Of a stretch of DNA of 64,000 nt, positions 16,106 to 38,042 are shown piece after piece; positions within the stretch are counted from its first letter, which is position 1; the number at the start of each line of letters is the position of its first letter. Below the pieces are notes generated by a model. The model made no database searches. It had not been told where the DNA came from and saw nothing but the letters and a program-made list of their open reading frames with translations. A program made the translations under genes and the position numbers. Source of the stretch: Acidobacteriales bacterium 13_1_40CM_3_55_5. Its GTDB lineage: Bacteria; Acidobacteriota; Terriglobia; Terriglobales; Acidobacteriaceae. The DNA lies in the NCBI GenBank assembly GCA_001918935.1, contig MNGW01000093.1, positions 5,302 through 69,301 on the forward strand, read 5' to 3'.

Positions 16106-16810
16106 ATGACCCTGCAACATGTAGACATTCTGTTCAAGCTGATCGTGTTTTTGTTTGCGATCAGCTTTCACGAATCCGCGCATGCTTGGATGGCCAACCG
16201 TTGCGGCGATCCGACCGCGCGCATGCTCGGCCGCATTAGTCTGAATCCGATAAAGCACATTGATCCTCTGGGAACGATTCTGCTGCCGCTGGTCGCGATG
16301 TTTACCCACATCCCCGTATTGGGATGGGCTAAGCCGACACCGGTCGATCCGCGCAACTTTCGCCGACCGGTGCTGGATGACATCCTCACCTCTGTGGTCG
16401 GACCAATCAGCAACTTTATAGTAGCCAGCGGCGCGGTTCTGATTCTGGCTGCTATTTCATTTACCTCACAAATCGGGCACGGCATCGTGCAAAACATGCC
16501 TTGGGCATATCTGACCAATAACCTGGATGTGCTCGCCGCGCAAACCAACTCGGTGCTCATGCCTATCAGTCTGCTCGCATATGAGTTGATGGTGATCAAC
16601 ATAGTCTTGGGCGTTTTTAATCTGATTCCGGTTCCCCCCCTCGACGGCAGCCACGTGCTGCGGCATTTGCTGCCCGAGCCAATTCGCCGCGTCTATGACA
16701 CGATGGGCTGGTTTGCACTGCTGGCGCTGGTCTACTTCGGTGGGAACTTCCTGGGGCGGTTGATCTTCCCCGTCCTGGGGTTATTCAATTCTCTGTTGAT
16801 GAGAATGTGA
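16106..16810 (+). CDS. site-2 protease family (M50) protein
   Basis: HESAHAWMA ... SLNPIKHIDPLGT, in a membrane protein. Confidence 0.85.
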   Translation: MTLQHVDILFKLIVFLFAISFHESAHAWMANRCGDPTARMLGRISLNPIKHIDPLGTILLPLVAMFTHIPVLGWAKPTPVDPRNFRRPVLDDILTSVVGPISNFIVASGAVLILAAISFTSQIGHGIVQNMPWAYLTNNLDVLAAQTNSVLMPISLLAYELMVINIVLGVFNLIPVPPLDGSHVLRHLLPEPIRRVYDTMGWFALLALVYFGGNFLGRLIFPVLGLFNSLLMRM

Positions 16811-17859
16811 TGTCTTCTCGTTCCAATCATCGCAAACGCGTGCTCAGCGGTATGCGCTCTACGGGCAAACTGCATCTGGGGAATTTTGTCGGCGCCCTGG
16901 ACAACTGGGTACGCATGCAGGAACAGTATGAATGCTTCTTCTTCGTGGCCGACTGGCACGCACTGACCACGGACTACGCCGATACTTCGCGGATCAAACA
17001 AAATTCGCTCGAGGTTCTACTCGACTGGCTAGCAGCCGGACTCGATCCCGACCACTGCACCATGTTTATCCAGTCGCATGTGCCACAGCATGCCGAATTG
17101 CATCTTCTGCTTTCCATGATCACTCCGCTGGGCTGGCTTGAGCGTGTCCCTACGTATAAGGAGCAGCGGGAAAACATCAGCGAAAAAGATCTCGGCACCT
17201 ATGGCTTCCTCGGATACCCGGTGCTGCAAGCTGCCGACATTCTGATTTATAAAGGCGACTTCGTTCCCGTGGGTGAAGATCAAGTGCCCCACGTCGAATT
17301 GACTCGCGAAATTGCGCGCCGCTTCAACATGTTTTACAGCGGCAAGCGTTCTTACGTTTTCCCTGAACCGCAGCCGCTGCTGACTCCAGCGGCGAAACTG
17401 CCCGGAACCGATGGGCGCAAGATGTCGAAATCCTACGGAAACACCATCCTGCTAACCGATCCGGAGCCGGTGGTGCGGCAGAAATTGAAGACCATGGTCA
17501 CCGACCCCGCCCGTGTGCGCAGGACCGATCCCGGCAATCCCGATATCTGTCCCGTTGGGGACCTGCACAAGATTTTCAGCGACCGGGCCACCATTGCCAA
17601 AGTTGATGTAGGCTGCCGTTCGGCGGCCATCGGATGCATTGAGTGCAAGGGTTGGGCCGCCGATGCACTAGTTAGCATTCTGAATCCCATGCAGGAGCGT
17701 CGGAGAAAATATGAGGAAAATCCACACCTCGCCTGGGATATTCTGGAAGCAGGCTCGGCCCGCGCTCGTAAGGTCGCTTCTGGCACCATGGATGAGGTTC
17801 GGGCCGCGATGAATATGTCGTTGGAATATGAGGCTCTTAGGGTGACTCGGAAGCAGTGA
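16807..17859 (+). CDS. trpS: tryptophan--tRNA ligase
   Basis: GKLHLGNFVGAL (HIGH-like) and KMSKS motifs. Confidence 0.95.
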   Translation: MMSSRSNHRKRVLSGMRSTGKLHLGNFVGALDNWVRMQEQYECFFFVADWHALTTDYADTSRIKQNSLEVLLDWLAAGLDPDHCTMFIQSHVPQHAELHLLLSMITPLGWLERVPTYKEQRENISEKDLGTYGFLGYPVLQAADILIYKGDFVPVGEDQVPHVELTREIARRFNMFYSGKRSYVFPEPQPLLTPAAKLPGTDGRKMSKSYGNTILLTDPEPVVRQKLKTMVTDPARVRRTDPGNPDICPVGDLHKIFSDRATIAKVDVGCRSAAIGCIECKGWAADALVSILNPMQERRRKYEENPHLAWDILEAGSARARKVASGTMDEVRAAMNMSLEYEALRVTRKQ

Positions 17860-34218: not shown

Positions 34219-34998
34219 ATGCCTCTGTCGGCCGTCATTGTGGATGATGAGCAGTTGGCGCGAGATGAACTCGCATTTCTGCTGAAGAGTGTGGACGATG
34301 TGAATGTCGTGGCGCAGGGGAAAAATGGCGTGGACGCCATCAACCTTATCCGCGAATTTAATCCTGACCTGGTTTTTCTCGATGTGCAGATGCCGGGGCT
34401 GGACGGCTTTGGAGTCATCAAGAAGCTGCTCGATAAGAAAATTCCGCTGCCGAAGATTGTTTTTGCTACTGCCTTCGATCAGTATGCGGTGAAGGCATTT
34501 GAGGTGAATGCAGTTGACTACTTGCTCAAACCTTTTGATAAGAAGCGGGTGGCGCAGTCGGTGCAGAAGGCAAGGGCCAAAATAGAAACCAGCGGCACTT
34601 CGTCAGAGAAATTAGAGACGCTGGTGCGGATGCTGGAGTCGCAGAAGCCGCAAGCGTCCAAAGTTCTGCTGAAATCCGCGGGCCGGTTGTTTCTGATTAG
34701 TCAGAAAGATATTTGCTACGCTTCCATCGAAGATGGCGTTATCAGCGTGATGACTACTGGTCCCAACGGCATGGAAGGTCAGTCGAACTGCCGTACCTTG
34801 GAAGAGCTATTGGACAGTCTGGATCCCAATCTTTTTTGGCGAGCGCATCGCTCCTATCTGGTGAATATCAATCGCATCAAGGAAGTTGTTCCCTGGTTCA
34901 AGAGTTCGTATCAACTGCGCATGGATGATAAGAAACAGACTGAAATTCCGGTAAGTCGCGCCCAGACCAAGCGGCTGCGGGAATTGTTCGGACTATAG
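34219..34998 (+). CDS. LytTR-family response regulator (receiver + LytTR DNA-binding domain)
   Basis: VIVDDEQLARDEL...DLVFLDVQMPGLDGF, then a LytTR C-terminus (FWRAHRSYLVN). No histidine kinase lies adjacent. Confidence 0.9.
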   Translation: MPLSAVIVDDEQLARDELAFLLKSVDDVNVVAQGKNGVDAINLIREFNPDLVFLDVQMPGLDGFGVIKKLLDKKIPLPKIVFATAFDQYAVKAFEVNAVDYLLKPFDKKRVAQSVQKARAKIETSGTSSEKLETLVRMLESQKPQASKVLLKSAGRLFLISQKDICYASIEDGVISVMTTGPNGMEGQSNCRTLEELLDSLDPNLFWRAHRSYLVNINRIKEVVPWFKSSYQLRMDDKKQTEIPVSRAQTKRLRELFGL

Positions 34999-35195: not shown

Positions 35196-35732
35196 TCAAA
35201 GAATGGCGGGCAGGCGAGAGGCGCGGGCGGGATGTTGCATAAAGGCGAGTTGACCGGCCAGGCTGCTGAGATGCTGATAGTTATCCACCAATCTTCCAGC
35301 GGAGAGGTGAGCTCCGGGCAACGCGATCCCTAGATACAGCCTGACGGTTGCCAGAAGAGCATAGTGTCGGAGACGCAAAGCGGTATCGAGCAATTGGCGC
35401 CCCGCCTCAGCAATCTTGGGGTCGAGGCTAAGACGCGCAGCCTCTCCCAACCGCACCAGGACGGCGGCATTGTGCGCCGCGCAGCTCACGTATTCCATCG
35501 CAGCGTACAAGCGCTCCTTTTGGATGGCAAGAAACTCACTCGCCGGCAGGTTCTCACGAAGGAAATCTTCTTCGGCAGGATCAATGAGATTTCGGAAGGC
35601 CTCGATATCGACGGGCCGTGTGCGGCCCGCCAAGTCGTCCAAGTCGCCGATGGCAGAAGTCTTTCCTCGGGCAGCGTACATCAACAACAGTGCCGTCAAG
35701 GAGACAAGGACGAGAACAAAAGCAAGAATCAT
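35196..35732 (-). CDS. hypothetical single-pass membrane protein
   Basis: N-terminal TM segment MILAFVLVLVSLTALLLMYAA. The start ATG overlaps the stop of the upstream reading frame (ATGA). Confidence 0.6.
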   Translation of the reverse strand: MILAFVLVLVSLTALLLMYAARGKTSAIGDLDDLAGRTRPVDIEAFRNLIDPAEEDFLRENLPASEFLAIQKERLYAAMEYVSCAAHNAAVLVRLGEAARLSLDPKIAEAGRQLLDTALRLRHYALLATVRLYLGIALPGAHLSAGRLVDNYQHLSSLAGQLAFMQHPARASRLPAIL

Positions 35733-36501
35733 CGTAGTAGCAAGCGTTGCATTTCAGTATTCCACTGTTCGAGGTTATTGTCAGGCACGTGTTTGACCGC
35801 ACGTCTGGCAGTATCGGGCGCCAGCAGATACACAAGCCAGATCAGTACACAGCAATGATAAGTTGCCATCGTAATAAAATCCAGGCTGTAACTCCCGGCA
35901 GCAGGCCCGGTTCCAATTCGCAGCGCCGTAGTTGCTAAAGTTACGCTTGAAAAAATTCCCAGTCCCGCGGGCCGTAAACATAATTTTGCCAGGAAAGCCC
36001 AAAGTAGGATGAAAATAGAAACAGGAACACCAACAACCCGCTCTGCATGAGACTAACGGCACAATTCGCAACGTGAATTCCGGAGAGTAGCGGCGTCGAG
36101 TCGTTGGGTGCGCGCGCGGCCACCGCAACTGCCACAAGCAGCAAAACTACTACACCCCAGCGAAATAGTATTCGACCGAGTTCCGCAAGCGCAGGATAGG
36201 GATCGAAAATCCGGTTGAATATCTCGTAAATCAAAGCGAAACGCAGCACGATACTTCCGATAGTATCTACCCATTGTGCATTGACGTACTGGTCGGCCGA
36301 GACGGCTGAAATGTGGTCCAACATGAAAAGCGTTCCGCCCATTACGATCTGAAACAGCGTATAGGTCAGGAATACCGGAAATTCACGTACCAATCGACGG
36401 CGGATCATAATAAGGGCGATCGCCACCCTGGAGGACGTGGGGCGCGACCCAGAGATAGTGCCATATTGGCGAGTGAGGGTACATAGCCGACGCTCCGGCA
36501 A
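35729..36501 (-). CDS. hypothetical polytopic membrane protein, apparently frameshifted at a T6 run near 35950
   Basis: The 186-aa ORF ends ..GPRDWEFFQA*. Adding one T continues it as ..EFFSSVTLATTALRIGTGPAAG..CCVLIWLVYLLAP..RLLLR*, which ends in ATGA overlap with the next gene. Confidence 0.55.
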
Positions 36502-36595
36502 TATACCCTCTTTTGCCGATCACTAGCAATCGCAATGGTGTGCCTACCGCCCTGTTTCAGGCATTTTTACGTCGCACACTTGCACACCAGGCATG

Positions 36596-36724
36596 TTATG
36601 GTTTACATACCTGATTGGGCAGACAGCTCGGACCAGGGTTTCCATCGGCCTTCAGAGTTGTAGGGATAGACAGCGCGCCTGCGAGCAATAGCGCATTTAA
36701 CAGCAGGAGTAGGATCTTTTTCAC
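36596..36724 (-). CDS. small secreted peptide precursor (42 aa), not in the ORF track
   Basis: AAGGAG lies 7 nt upstream of a GTG start. Product is VKKILLLLLNALLLAGALSIPTTLKA/DGNPGPSCLPNQVCKP. An in-frame TGA lies 8 codons upstream. Confidence 0.55.
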   Translation of the reverse strand: MKKILLLLLNALLLAGALSIPTTLKADGNPGPSCLPNQVCKP

Positions 36725-36795
36725 GGTAGAACTCCTTTGTGTAGTTCAGGTGGTTCAACCGTGGTAATGTGGGCGGGATTCCGTTAGTCGGAGAG

Positions 36796-36815
36796 CCGAA
36801 CGCTGGATCGTTCGG
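36796..36815. promoter_or_regulatory. perfect inverted repeat CCGAACG-N6-CGTTCGG in a divergent intergenic region
   Basis: Read directly. TTTT follows on the plus strand. It lies 23 nt upstream of the ATG at 36839. Confidence 0.3.
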
Positions 36816-36838
36816 TTTTCTGAAATTGGAACAAGGGA

Positions 36839-37267
36839 ATGACTCTAAAATCTGCGCTCGACGACGTGCTAGACGTGACGCTTACTGCGGTTTCCGGGAT
36901 CGTCGGAAAGCTGGAGTATCTTTCCGGTCTGCAAGAAACGTCCTACTCCTATTCCCATTGGGGACTGTCGAGAGTTTATGGGGAAGGGGCTGCACAACAG
37001 GCGTTGGGGGAAGCGCACTCCGCGTGTTTCCTGGCTACCCTGCGTACTTCCTTGCGAACATTACGGGACGATGTAGAAGTTTCAAGCCGAGGGAAACAGA
37101 AGCCGGCAGAGGAATATATAAAGAACTTACGGGGTCGTTGGGCTGCCTTATTGCCAACTGATCTTGGTGGGGGGTCGGCGCGGCATTTCAGTTCAGTGCT
37201 GCACGCCCTTTCGAGTCTGGCTTCGAATCAGACAAAGAGTCAGCCGCGCGCCACTCCCCCAAGCTAA
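36839..37267 (+). CDS. hypothetical protein
   Basis: 142-aa ORF with no recognisable motif. Its 3' end overlaps the convergent XRE gene by 80 nt. Confidence 0.45.
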   Translation: MTLKSALDDVLDVTLTAVSGIVGKLEYLSGLQETSYSYSHWGLSRVYGEGAAQQALGEAHSACFLATLRTSLRTLRDDVEVSSRGKQKPAEEYIKNLRGRWAALLPTDLGGGSARHFSSVLHALSSLASNQTKSQPRATPPS

Positions 37268-38042
37268 CCGCGATGCCAATCACTTGGCCGATCACTTCCG
37301 CATCCTGTGGATGACGTAAGATGCGCACCGGCACTGGCGATAAGGGGTGGGGCTGGAGGACGACGTGGTCTCCCTTCAGAGTGCACCAACAGCAAGTGTA
37401 GCCGTCGCGTGTTTCCACGAAATAAATGGGACGCTCGTATTCGGAACGCCACATACCTTGCAGAATCTTATTTCTGGACTCATCCACTTGAAGGAAAGTT
37501 CCCGGCGGCAAAATCGGATACATAGTGAAGTCTTCACTGCCAACGTAACCGTACGTGTATTTATCGCTGGCAAACTGGGACAAGTAAGCCAGTGGAACCA
37601 ATCCCCATTGCTCCACCATACGGCCTAAGTTGTTAGTCCGGCGTGGGTCAAACGCAGGATCCAATCTGGTGGGCATTTGCACTACCGAAGCACCTTGCAG
37701 AAGTTCGGACGGATGAGACTTGGGGGGAAGGTTAAGCTTCATATCCGCAGTGCTGGCATTCAAATCGATGCCATACCAGGACAATATTTCACGCAAGTCG
37801 CGCCGATAAATCACCGCCAAGGAATATAGACGATAGATACTGGGCACCAGACCCTTAGTCTCGATGTCGGAGAGACGGCTGGGACTGACCGAGAATTCGT
37901 CGTTTCCGTGTTTGTCAGCGATGCGCGCACTTGCAGTTTCGACCTCTCGCATTGTGAGGCCCAGACGTTCCCGCGAGATTCGTAGATTCAGGCCAGCAAC
38001 AACGATGGCAATCTTCCTTTCAGCAGCTGGTTCAAGCTGCAT
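37188..38042 (-). CDS. XRE-family HTH regulator with degenerate S24 (LexA/CI-like) C-terminal domain
   Basis: The HTH is ISRERLGLTMREVETAS. The C-terminal part aligns to the S24 fold, with FTMYP in place of GDSMxP and CCWC in place of VKR. Confidence 0.7.
   Translation of the reverse strand: MQLEPAAERKIAIVVAGLNLRISRERLGLTMREVETASARIADKHGNDEFSVSPSRLSDIETKGLVPSIYRLYSLAVIYRRDLREILSWYGIDLNASTADMKLNLPPKSHPSELLQGASVVQMPTRLDPAFDPRRTNNLGRMVEQWGLVPLAYLSQFASDKYTYGYVGSEDFTMYPILPPGTFLQVDESRNKILQGMWRSEYERPIYFVETRDGYTCCWCTLKGDHVVLQPHPLSPVPVRILRHPQDAEVIGQVIGIAVSLGEWRAADSLSDSKPDSKGRAALN

What the first reader, a model, noticed from the sequence alone, without database searches (positions are those of the whole stretch)
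36596..36724. Unannotated 42-codon gene for a signal-peptide-bearing C-X5-C peptide heading a membrane-protein operon
The gene is on the minus strand and is not in the ORF track because it is under 60 aa. AAGGAG is followed after 7 nt by a GTG start. The product is VKKILLLLLNALLLAGALSIPTTLKA-DGNPGPSCLPNQVCKP.

It has a classical n/h/c signal peptide with an A-x-A-like LKA site. The predicted 16-residue mature peptide has two Cys spaced for a small disulfide loop.

The SD is the strongest I saw in this window, and an in-frame stop lies 8 codons upstream.

The gene sits about 95 nt upstream of a polytopic membrane protein, which is translationally coupled to a single-pass membrane protein. A LytTR response regulator gene (34219-34998) lies next to the operon end.

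In Firmicutes, LytTR regulators (AgrA, ComE, PlnC, BlpR) control peptide signalling and bacteriocin loci.

Inference: this is a candidate exported signalling or bacteriocin-like peptide module of a kind not described for this lineage.
Basis: partly seen in the sequence, partly recalled or inferred. Interest (0 to 1): 0.62.

Follow-up and report, generated by a model that had tools for sequence, protein, structure and literature searches.

The report
Exported mini-peptide paired with 7TM protein
The 42-codon gene is real: it encodes a small exported peptide that, across soil Acidobacteria, almost always sits beside the gene for an uncharacterised seven-helix membrane protein, so the two very likely work together, and not with the neighbouring LytTR regulator.

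Summary
**Observation.** The ORF at 36596-36724 (minus strand) is there as described: AAGGAG, 7 nt, then GTG.

**Evidence that it is a gene**
- It is conserved in synteny across many genera. pN/pS is 0.21-0.29 against same-genus relatives.
- A profile of 13 homologues hits 58 of 63 independent related loci. Every hit lies on the same strand, within 450 nt upstream of one membrane-protein gene. There were no hits elsewhere in 508 kb.
- The product is a Sec-type signal peptide ending in A|DG, followed by a short mature peptide. The core motif is DGxPxP, usually followed by C-x(2-7)-C-K-P.

**Partners**
- The constant partner is a family with no Pfam or NCBIfam model. Its model has seven transmembrane helices, and its cytoplasmic half is more conserved than its periplasmic half.
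- In 45 of 63 loci the pair sits with an HTH regulator and a 142-aa protein; a largely overlapping set of 46 loci also has a single-pass 178-aa protein.
- A LytTR orthologue is nearby in only 1 of 63 loci, so the quorum-sensing/bacteriocin reading is not supported.

**State in this genome**
- In the window the seven-helix gene carries two frameshifts. Both are seen in independent soil metagenomes, so this copy of the module is probably decaying.
- A second, intact pair lies on another contig of the same genome.

**Best reading.** The peptide is a dedicated periplasmic ligand or modulator of the seven-helix protein. This is inferred and untested.

The parts
36596..36724 (-). Small gene: 42 codons plus stop, GTG start. 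Residues 1-26 (36647-36724) form a Sec-type signal peptide. Residues 27-42 (36599-36646) form the mature peptide DGNPGPSCLPNQVCKP.
   Evidence: Searches show the sequence. Searches show syntenic homologues. One search gives pN/pS of 0.21-0.29. One search finds it in 58 of 63 loci. One search gives a genome-wide E of 9e-20.
36732..36737 (-). Shine-Dalgarno AAGGAG, 7 nt before the GTG.
   Evidence: AAAGGAG followed by a GTG start is conserved in most of the 58 related loci: 43 GTG calls, plus TTG calls that are artefacts lying upstream of a GTG.
36500..36529 (-). Promoter-like pair: TTGCTA, 18 nt, TATATT. It ends 15 nt before the 7TM ATG.
   Evidence: The same arrangement is present in 52 of 60 related loci. 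Function was not tested.
36475..36510 (-). Predicted RNA hairpin (GAGGGUAUA / UAUGUACCCUC) that encloses the 7TM start codon.
   Evidence: z = -3.2 for the whole spacer; 3 of 9 pairs have compensatory changes; a different covarying stem sits at the same place in 24 more distant loci.
35729..36484 (-). Gene for the seven-helix membrane protein (about 250 aa when intact). Here it is disrupted by a +1 indel near 36426 and a -4 indel at 35971/35970.
   Evidence: alignment with the intact genes of G001 and G002; both indels are present in the independent metagenome contigs X1, X2 and X4, and X3 lacks the +1; family alignment, structure model and fold search.
35196..35732 (-). Gene for a 178-aa protein with an N-terminal TM helix and a cytoplasmic helical bundle. 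Its ATG overlaps the 7TM stop codon (ATGA).
   Evidence: Present in 46 of 63 related loci.
36839..37267 (+). Divergent gene for a 142-aa protein of unknown fold. It is a constant companion of the HTH gene.
   Evidence: Present in 45 of 63 loci, always together with the HTH gene.
37188..38042 (-). Gene for a 284-aa protein with a weak XRE-type HTH and a C-terminal domain carrying a CCWC motif. Its 3' end overlaps the 142-aa gene.
   Evidence: HTH_31 and HTH_3 score below threshold and there is no S24 hit; present in 45 of 63 loci; also present in rearranged paralogous loci.

Best explanation
The ORF is a real gene for a Sec-exported mini-protein. Signal peptidase I most likely cuts after ...LKA. 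That releases a peptide of about 16 residues, DGNPGPSCLPNQVCKP, into the periplasm, where the two Cys can form a small disulfide loop.

The peptide belongs to a family restricted to one acidobacterial family (Terriglobales). Members share an A|DG cleavage site and a DGxPxP core, usually followed by C-x(2-7)-C-K-P. The family is genetically locked to an uncharacterised seven-helix membrane protein.

My best reading is that the peptide binds the variable periplasmic face of that 7TM protein as its dedicated ligand or modulator. The conserved cytoplasmic face and C-terminal helix of the 7TM protein would then talk to the co-translated 178-aa single-pass protein. In most loci the signal would pass onward to the adjacent 142-aa protein and HTH regulator.

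- **Shown:** the gene is real and under purifying selection, and its linkage to the 7TM gene is conserved in two gene orders.
- **Inferred:** export and cleavage, physical binding, and any signalling output.

In this particular genome the cognate 7TM gene carries two frameshifts, so this copy of the module is probably no longer functional. An intact second pair exists on contig C136.
For: **Gene reality**
- Homologues with an intact frame lie about 1 kb upstream of the 178-aa gene in many genera.
- There are 20 synonymous against 11 non-synonymous differences versus G001, giving pN/pS of 0.21.
- The SD and GTG start are conserved.

**Linkage to the 7TM gene**
- There are 59 profile hits at E < 0.01 in 58 of 63 loci. 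All lie on the same strand within 450 nt upstream of the 7TM gene, with none elsewhere in 508 kb.
- A second gene order exists: a roughly 300-aa 7TM gene followed by a downstream peptide gene. It occurs in at least 9 genomes, including this one.
- Rearranged paralogous loci keep all five genes.

**Export**
- The peptide has an MKK n-region, a hydrophobic core of 12-15 residues and a Pro at -6/-5.
- Ala at -1 directly before DG is conserved.

**Receptor-like design of the partner**
- The AF2 model shows 7 TM helices plus a C-terminal helix, with pLDDT 85.7.
- The best fold matches are GPCR transmembrane domains and microbial rhodopsins, at TM-score about 0.5.
- The cytoplasmic half is more conserved than the periplasmic half: 0.71 against 0.52, p = 1.5e-12.
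- The 178-aa partner is very conserved and is coupled by an ATGA overlap.

**Module.** The HTH and 142-aa genes are present in 45 of 63 loci.
Against: - There is no experimental or structural evidence of binding.
- The fold matches are not significant (E of 0.2 or worse).
- Topology rests only on the positive-inside rule.
- One clade of peptides lacks Cys, so the disulfide loop is not essential to the family.
- Thirteen to eighteen loci have the pair without the 178-aa, HTH or 142-aa genes, so a transcriptional output is not universal.
- Transcription evidence is thin. One ambiguous 'RNA?' contig covers the ORF (X25), and one true metatranscriptome contig covers only the upstream spacer (X26).
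- In the window the 7TM partner is frameshifted twice. A variant strain (X27, X28) has lost the GTG start and changed D27 and P32.
Confidence: 0.55

Rival explanations
1. The peptide is an exported quorum-sensing pheromone or bacteriocin whose locus is controlled by the neighbouring LytTR response regulator, as in Agr, Com, Pln or Blp. The membrane proteins would act as exporter, receptor or immunity.
For: A LytTR response regulator lies 197 nt beyond the operon end in the window. The peptide is small, exported and contains Cys.
Against: - A LytTR orthologue is nearby in only 1 of 63 related loci. In G016 it is 4 kb away behind two other genes, and in G018 it is absent.
- No histidine kinase, AgrB-like or C39/ABC exporter was recognised among the module genes or seen beside the pair.
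- The leader is a Sec signal peptide, not a double-glycine leader.
- In a diderm cell, Sec export ends in the periplasm.
- The locus is core-like and syntenic with glmS rather than patchy.
Confidence: 0.05
2. The peptide is a structural or accessory subunit, or an assembly factor, of a 7TM transporter or enzyme. It would have no signalling role, like small subunits such as KdpF or CydX, except that this one is soluble and periplasmic.
For: - Pairing with the 7TM gene is obligate in two gene orders.
- Some loci have the pair but no regulator genes.
- The 7TM protein has a conserved membrane-embedded Glu in YEIF and a conserved Gln in TM5. These could serve transport or catalysis.
Against: - No similarity to any transporter or enzyme family was found.
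- Conservation is concentrated on cytoplasmic loops rather than in a membrane-embedded site.
- An HTH regulator is the usual neighbour.
- L109 carries a duplicated PDGNPFPSGR unit, and G024 has three tandem peptide genes. Both look more like ligand precursors than like a stoichiometric subunit.
Confidence: 0.22
3. The peptide is a periplasmic redox or metal reporter. The thiol/disulfide state or metal loading of its Cys pair would be read by the 7TM protein, in the way MgrB's periplasmic cysteines couple DsbA activity to PhoQ.
For: - A Cys pair is present in most members.
- The HTH protein carries a CCWC motif, and TM7 of many 7TM proteins carries HCC.
- The second-arrangement (7TM-then-peptide) loci of G009 and L109 lie next to a large gene that by eye resembles thioredoxin-domain (YyaL-like) proteins; this was not checked with a family search.
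Against: - Cys spacing varies from 2 to 7 residues.
- A whole clade (DGNPWPH...) and the L109 peptide have no Cys, yet keep the 7TM partner.
- HCC is not conserved in distant 7TM members.
Confidence: 0.1
4. In this genome the gene is a relic. The module is being lost, and the peptide ORF is intact only because too little time has passed.
For: - The 7TM gene carries a -4 indel in all four metagenomes examined. It also carries a +1 indel in three of them.
- The truncated 186-aa product is seen 25 times on 10 contigs.
- Variant contigs X27 and X28 have GTG changed to GCG, plus D27A and P32R within 190 nt.
Against: - The peptide ORF and the 178-aa gene are intact and unchanged in X1-X4.
- This concerns the state of one copy, not what the family does, so it is compatible with the best explanation.
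Confidence: 0.5

Closest known systems
MgrB-PhoQ (E. coli/Salmonella) and CpxP-CpxA: small envelope proteins encoded beside, and modulating, a membrane sensor (from my own knowledge of the literature)
   Same: A small exported or membrane peptide with a periplasmic Cys pair (MgrB), or a small periplasmic protein (CpxP), is encoded next to the sensor it modulates. The logic is autocrine and confined to the envelope of a diderm cell.
   Different: - The partner here is a stand-alone 7TM protein with no kinase domain.
- The peptide appears to be cleaved and soluble, whereas MgrB keeps its TM helix.
- There is no sequence or Pfam relation.
- The output would run through a single-pass protein and an HTH protein, not a two-component system.
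Agr-type peptide signalling (AgrD peptide, polytopic AgrC receptor, LytTR regulator AgrA)
   Same: A short Cys-containing peptide is encoded beside a polytopic membrane receptor. In the window, a LytTR regulator is nearby.
   Different: - AgrD has no Sec signal and needs AgrB.
- AgrC is a histidine kinase.
- Here there is no AgrB and no kinase, and LytTR adjacency is found in only 1 of 63 loci.
Peptide-binding 7TM receptors of eukaryotes (for example Ste2 with alpha-factor, class B GPCRs) and bacterial 7TMR-DISM sensors
   Same: The partner is a seven-helix bundle with the N terminus outside and the C terminus inside. Its outer face is variable and its inner face is conserved. The top fold hits are GPCR transmembrane domains and rhodopsins.
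   Different: - The fold matches are not significant (E of 0.2 or worse, TM-score about 0.5).
- There are no Pfam 7TM families, no fused signalling domain, and no G-protein equivalents.
- Homology is not shown.
Sec-dependent class II bacteriocins (for example enterocin P) with membrane immunity proteins
   Same: A Sec signal peptide, a Cys pair, and an adjacent small membrane protein gene.
   Different: - The mature peptide is only 12-30 residues long.
- The host is a diderm.
- The locus is vertically inherited and core-like.
- There is no YGNGV box.
- The partner is a 7TM protein linked to a regulator.

Membership tests
Type I (SPase I) Sec signal peptide | A positively charged n-region, a hydrophobic h-region of 10-15 residues, and a c-region with small residues at -1 and -3 | tested here: met
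   MKK, then ILLLLLNALLLAGAL, then SIPTTLKA|DG. Ala at -1 and L/V/A at -3 are conserved across 13 aligned homologues and about 55 further ones. This was judged by inspection only, because SignalP was not available.
Bacterial lipoprotein (SPase II) | A lipobox L-[AS]-[GA]-C with Cys at +1 | tested here: not met
   LLAGAL has no Cys. The LPAM_1 hit scores below its cut-off: 16.7 against 20 bits.
Agr/Com-type peptide quorum sensing | A conserved adjacent LytTR (or other) response regulator together with a receptor histidine kinase | tested here: not met
   A LytTR orthologue is present in 1 of 63 loci. No kinase domain is found in the 7TM or the 178-aa protein.
Agr/Com-type peptide quorum sensing | A dedicated processing or export protein (AgrB, ComQ, or a C39-ABC transporter) | tested here: not met
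   None was recognised among the five module proteins by Pfam, NCBIfam or PADLOC scans, and none was seen in the ORF lists of the G018, G016, G008 and paralogous loci. Neighbouring genes were not scanned systematically.
Class II bacteriocin locus | A double-glycine or Sec leader plus an immunity gene, with patchy, mobile distribution | tested here: not met
   The leader is a Sec leader. However, the locus is syntenic with glmS across genera, and the 7TM family was found in 18 of 20 genomes sampled from the taxonomic family.
GPCR / microbial rhodopsin / 7TMR-DISM 7TM receptors | Significant sequence or fold similarity to a known 7TM receptor family | tested here: inconclusive
   There is no Pfam or NCBIfam hit. 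Foldseek's best hits are GPCR transmembrane domains and rhodopsins, but at E = 0.24-1 and TM-score about 0.5. The PDB profile search gave only a spurious PsbY hit.
MgrB-like small membrane regulators | An uncleaved N-terminal TM anchor and binding to a sensor kinase | not testable with these tools
   A conserved A|DG site argues for cleavage, and no kinase is present. The binding partner cannot be tested in silico here.
LexA/CI-type (S24) C-terminal domain in the neighbouring HTH protein | A Pfam Peptidase_S24 match and a Ser-Lys dyad | tested here: not met
   Only sub-threshold HTH_31 and HTH_3 hits were found, with no S24 hit, in three orthologues and paralogues. No PDB relative was found.

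The most novel reading that the evidence does not exclude
The peptide and the 7TM protein form a bacterial peptide-ligand / seven-helix-receptor signalling pair. It would have GPCR-like logic without G proteins. The periplasmic DGxPxP peptide would bind the receptor's variable outer face. The conserved inner face and C-terminal helix would switch the 178-aa single-pass adaptor. The 142-aa protein would then relay this to an XRE-type regulator. That would be a new class of envelope-to-gene signal transduction, so far confined to Acidobacteriaceae.
Probability: 0.2. Interest if true: 0.85.

Novelty: new variant of a known kind. Interest (0 to 1): 0.62.

Why it matters
- Acidobacteria are among the most abundant soil bacteria, yet their signalling is almost unknown.
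- This small gene is missed by routine gene calling. A search of 5.8 billion proteins with the peptide returned only the query itself.
- Its partner is a large family of 'hypothetical' proteins with no Pfam model. It has 3,318 representatives in a library of 1.84 billion proteins.
- Near-obligate pairing of an exported mini-peptide with a stand-alone 7TM protein is, to my knowledge, not a described bacterial architecture. In most loci the pair also has a conserved adaptor and regulator set.
- If the pair is a ligand-receptor system, it is a compact five-gene model for a new signalling route, testable in cultured Acidobacteriaceae.
- It is also a reminder that ORFs under 60 aa can be the key to reading a neighbourhood.

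Tried and rejected
- **Protein search with the 42-aa peptide.** A search of 5.8 billion proteins returned only the query itself. Six-frame genome searches were needed instead.
- **Family libraries.** Pfam, NCBIfam and PADLOC found nothing for the peptide, the 7TM protein, the 178-aa protein or the 142-aa protein.
- **Fold searches.** The 178-aa model gave only generic helical bundles. The 7TM model gave only non-significant GPCR and rhodopsin matches. The PDB profile search gave a spurious PsbY hit.
- **LytTR link.** Rejected on synteny.
- **Sequencing-error explanation for the frameshifts.** Rejected, because Illumina-era contigs from different studies carry the same indels.
- **A programmed frameshift.** Considered unlikely. 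There are two indels of opposite sign, one of them is polymorphic (X3), and the same-genus relatives have intact genes.
- **Location of the downstream break.** Alignment with relatives places it at 35971/35970, because the frame that matches relatives already reads GLGIF before the T-run.
- **Literature.** A full-text search found nothing relevant.
- **RNA evidence.** Only two short contigs were found, one of ambiguous library type.
- **S24 domain in the HTH protein.** Not detected.

Full report
**1. The observation**

The minus strand at 36596-36724 carries a 42-codon ORF. It has a GTG start preceded by AAGGAG at a 7-nt spacing, and it gives MKKILLLLLNALLLAGALSIPTTLKADGNPGPSCLPNQVCKP.

The window is contig C111 of a 2.9-Mb, 74%-complete acidobacterial (Terriglobales) metagenome-assembled genome from soil.

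**2. Is it a gene?**

Yes.

- A six-frame search of 60 related genomes with the peptide found intact homologues. Each lies about 1 kb upstream of the homologue of the 178-aa downstream gene, in the same orientation, in many genera.
- Examples:
  - G001: ...TTLKADGDPLPSCPPHQICKP
  - G018: ...TSVRADGGPGPSCPPPQLCKP
  - G016: ...IQVQADGGPRPQCQPGQMCKP
  - G013: ...VAHADGGSSNGGNCSGQVACKP
- Against the two same-genus genomes, differences are mostly synonymous. There are 20 synonymous against 11 non-synonymous changes versus G001. pN/pS is 0.21 and 0.29.
- I built a profile from 13 homologues (A5) and ran it on 63 independent loci fetched through the membrane protein. It gave 59 hits at E < 0.01 in 58 loci. 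All lie on the same strand within 450 nt upstream of the membrane gene, with no hit anywhere else in 508 kb of six-frame sequence.
- In the window's own genome the ORF scores E = 9e-20 among 80,856 ORFs, and the next hit is at E = 0.2.
- The AAAGGAG box and, unusually, the GTG start are conserved in most loci: 43 GTG and 5 ATG among 59 calls, with the TTG calls being artefacts.
- Gene callers almost never report it. A search of 5.8 billion proteins returned only the query.

**3. What the product looks like**

- All members have an MK(K/R) n-region, a hydrophobic core of 12-15 residues, a Pro at about -6/-5, and Ala at -1 directly before Asp-Gly. That is a standard signal peptidase I substrate. 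There is no lipobox Cys.
- Cleavage and export are inferred. SignalP was not available.
- The mature part is 12-30 residues long. Its most conserved feature is DGxPxP at or near the new N terminus.
- Most members continue with two Cys spaced 2-7 residues apart and end in K-P.
- One clade has no Cys at all (ADGNPWPHVTAVSN; PPDGNPWPHLVGGRL). One peptide carries the unit PDGNPFPSGR twice.

**4. The partners**

*The seven-helix membrane protein*
- Intact relatives of the downstream 'polytopic' gene are 250-265 aa long and start MYPHSxLWHYLW.
- The family has no Pfam or NCBIfam model.
- An AlphaFold2 model built on 58 sequences has pLDDT 85.7 and pTM 0.84. It shows seven transmembrane helices plus a C-terminal helix.
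- Foldseek against the PDB returns GPCR transmembrane domains and microbial rhodopsins first, but only at E = 0.24-1 and TM-score about 0.5. I treat it as a generic seven-helix bundle, not as a member of those families.
- By the positive-inside rule the RRRLxREFP loop is cytoplasmic. That puts the N terminus outside and the C-terminal helix inside.
- On that topology the cytoplasmic half is clearly more conserved than the periplasmic half. Mean column conservation is 0.71 against 0.52, Mann-Whitney p = 1.5e-12. The motifs FSSYFGLSWR, YEIFxxxFRPYP and LExWNxELxRLL are all on the inside.

*The 178-aa protein*
- Its ATG overlaps the 7TM stop codon (ATGA).
- It is highly conserved, with 70% mean column identity.
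- Its model shows one N-terminal TM helix and a cytoplasmic helical bundle with no structural relative.

*Distribution*
- The 7TM family is confined to one taxonomic family, plus two genomes of the same class, among 251 genomes sampled across the phylum. It is nevertheless large in metagenomes: 3,318 representatives at E ≤ 1e-3, and the top 150 are all stand-alone proteins of 175-312 aa.

**5. A five-gene module, and a second arrangement**

- Upstream and divergent from the peptide gene lies a 142-aa protein gene. Its 3' end overlaps a 284-aa gene for a protein with a weak XRE-type HTH.
- Both genes are present, in the same arrangement, in 45 of 63 loci. They are also present in G018, G016 and G008, which have otherwise different flanks.
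- Paralogous loci in G016 and G018 keep the same five genes in a different order (peptide, 7TM, 178-aa, HTH, 142-aa homologue), with peptides ...SSFAAGGAPMPNCSPGHCPGK and ...ASFADGGAPPAMCYPSDCGK.
- A second subfamily of 7TM proteins is about 300 aa long, with a C-terminal extension. It is followed, not preceded, by a peptide gene of the same kind in at least nine genomes. In one case there are three tandem peptide genes.
- The window's own genome has such an intact pair on contig C136. The 7TM gene is at 16656-17552 and the peptide is MQRAIRMLILVVGLACTCLAASAPMATSFDGGPLCSFHACK.
- The invariant core is therefore peptide plus 7TM protein. The 178-aa, 142-aa and HTH genes are a frequent but not universal extension.

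**6. The LytTR neighbour**

- The LytTR response regulator at 34219-34998 is real, but it is convergent with the operon.
- A true orthologue lies within 4 kb in only 1 of 63 loci.
- In G016 it sits 4 kb away behind a sigma-54 activator and a Crp-family gene. In G018 it is not in the neighbourhood.
- Its adjacency in the window is a by-product of local gene loss, not a functional link.
- No kinase, exporter, peptide-processing or known immunity family was recognised among the module genes.

**7. State of the locus in this genome**

- Alignment with the two same-genus genomes shows that the window's 7TM gene carries a +1 insertion near 36426 and a 4-nt deletion at 35971/35970.
- Contigs from soil metagenomes of different studies carry both indels (X1, X2, X4) or only the deletion (X3). 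They are therefore real alleles, not assembly errors.
- The truncated 186-aa product occurs 25 times in public assemblies.
- The peptide ORF and the 178-aa gene are unchanged in those runs. Two other runs (X27, X28) hold a variant with GTG changed to GCG at the start, plus D27A and P32R.
- Module A thus looks as if it is decaying in this species, while the C136 pair is intact.
Comparison with relatives places it about 20 nt further upstream in the gene.

**8. Regulatory anatomy (partly followed)**

- Between the peptide stop and the 7TM ATG, 52 of 60 loci have TTGNNN, then 16-19 nt, then TATAGT/TATATT/TATGCT. This element ends 13-20 nt before the ATG. In the window it is TTGCTA-18-TATATT at 36529-36500.
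- That suggests the 7TM and 178-aa genes have their own promoter and a very short leader. The peptide gene may then be a separate transcription unit.
- The same stretch also forms a hairpin that ends at, or includes, the start codon.
  - In 24 distant loci the stem GGGCYRCC/GGYRGCCC covaries (UA 9 / CG 13; AU 11 / GU 6 / GC 7). The G-U pairs point to RNA rather than DNA.
  - In the window's clade the stem is GAGGGUAUA/UAUGUACCCUC.
- Which of the two signals is functional, or whether read-through transcripts are translationally masked, is open.
- Transcript evidence is thin. One contig of an ambiguously labelled RNA library covers 36427-36712. One metatranscriptome contig covers 36744-36943.

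**9. How it most likely works**

- **Shown:** a selected, conserved small gene is obligately linked to a 7TM gene in two gene orders. The 7TM and 178-aa genes are coupled. The HTH and 142-aa genes are frequent companions.
- **Inferred:**
  - The peptide is exported by Sec and cut after Ala-26. In a diderm cell it stays in the periplasm.
  - There it binds the fast-evolving outer face of the 7TM protein.
  - The conserved inner face would then act on the 178-aa protein and, where present, on the 142-aa/HTH pair.
  - The aromatic N-terminal segment LWHYLW of the 7TM protein is a plausible docking site for a Pro-rich turn peptide. This is speculation.
- I put 0.55 on 'dedicated periplasmic ligand or modulator of the 7TM protein'. 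About 0.2 of that is on a true ligand-receptor signalling route.
- The main rival is a non-signalling accessory subunit (0.22).
- A redox or metal reporter role (0.1) is weakened by the Cys-free clade.
- The LytTR/quorum-sensing/bacteriocin model is at about 0.05.

**10. Comparison with known systems**

- The closest in logic are MgrB-PhoQ and CpxP-CpxA. Each is a small envelope protein encoded beside the sensor it modulates.
- Next closest is Agr (peptide plus polytopic receptor).
- In shape only, it also resembles the peptide-binding 7TM receptors of eukaryotes.
- It is a member of none of these. There is no kinase, no AgrB, no conserved LytTR and no significant fold or sequence match.
- I rate it a new variant of a known kind (small exported modulator plus membrane sensor). 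There is a 0.2 chance that it is something more novel.

Noticed in passing
window 35729-36484 (minus): The 7TM gene carries a +1 indel near 36426 and a -4 indel at 35971/35970 relative to the intact same-genus genes. Both indels are present in independent soil metagenome contigs, and the +1 is polymorphic. The gene is a recent pseudogene, not an assembly error.
   Followed up: yes
own genome, contig C136: 16656-17552 (minus) and 16223-16345 (minus): A second, intact 7TM paralogue of 298 aa with a C-terminal extension. It is followed downstream by a small gene, MQRAIRMLILVVGLACTCLAASAPMATSFDGGPLCSFHACK. The same 7TM-then-peptide order recurs in at least 9 genomes.
   Followed up: partly
window 36475-36529 (minus); L054-L116, the 50 nt before the 7TM ATG: A conserved promoter-like element (TTGNNN-N16-19-TATAGT) ends about 14 nt before the 7TM ATG in 52 of 60 loci. 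It is superimposed on a covarying RNA hairpin that ends at or includes the start codon. Possible readings are a near-leaderless 7TM mRNA, translational masking in read-through transcripts, or both.
   Followed up: partly
window 36796-36815 and 36816-36838: The CCGAACG-N6-CGTTCGG palindrome has compensatory counterparts in relatives (G001: CGGACG-N7-CGTCCG; L054: AAAACCGGA-N5-TCCGGTTTT). A conserved TTTCnGAAA / TTCCGGAA motif lies next to the start of the 142-aa gene. A metatranscriptome contig (X26) spans 36744-36943, which suggests a long 5' UTR for the 142-aa gene.
   Followed up: partly
window 37188-37267: The HTH gene and the 142-aa gene overlap 3' to 3' by 60-80 nt. This convergent overlap is kept in all 45 related loci that have the two genes.
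   Followed up: partly
window 37188-38042 (minus); 7TM TM7 (about 35800-35870): Cys clusters recur across the module. The C-terminal domain of the HTH protein has a conserved CCWC motif, also in paralogues. TM7 of many 7TM proteins has HCC. The peptide has its Cys pair. Pfam does not detect an S24 domain in the HTH protein.
   Followed up: partly
window 36630, 36645, 36723 (runs X27, X28): A variant strain has GTG changed to GCG at the peptide start codon, plus D27A and P32R. All three changes are non-synonymous or disabling, within 190 nt at about 98% identity. This is consistent with relaxed constraint on the peptide once the 7TM partner is broken.
   Followed up: partly
L109:5107-5295; G024:C72:33431-34046: One peptide of the second (7TM-then-peptide) arrangement carries the unit PDGNPFPSGR twice and has no Cys. 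Another genome has three tandem peptide genes downstream of one 7TM gene. Both are reminiscent of multi-copy peptide precursors.
   Followed up: no
L077, L071, L089 (long-read MAGs): Several related loci show frameshifts in the peptide, 7TM and 178-aa genes at once. These are probably long-read assembly errors rather than biology, and they should be excluded from any pseudogene count.
   Followed up: no
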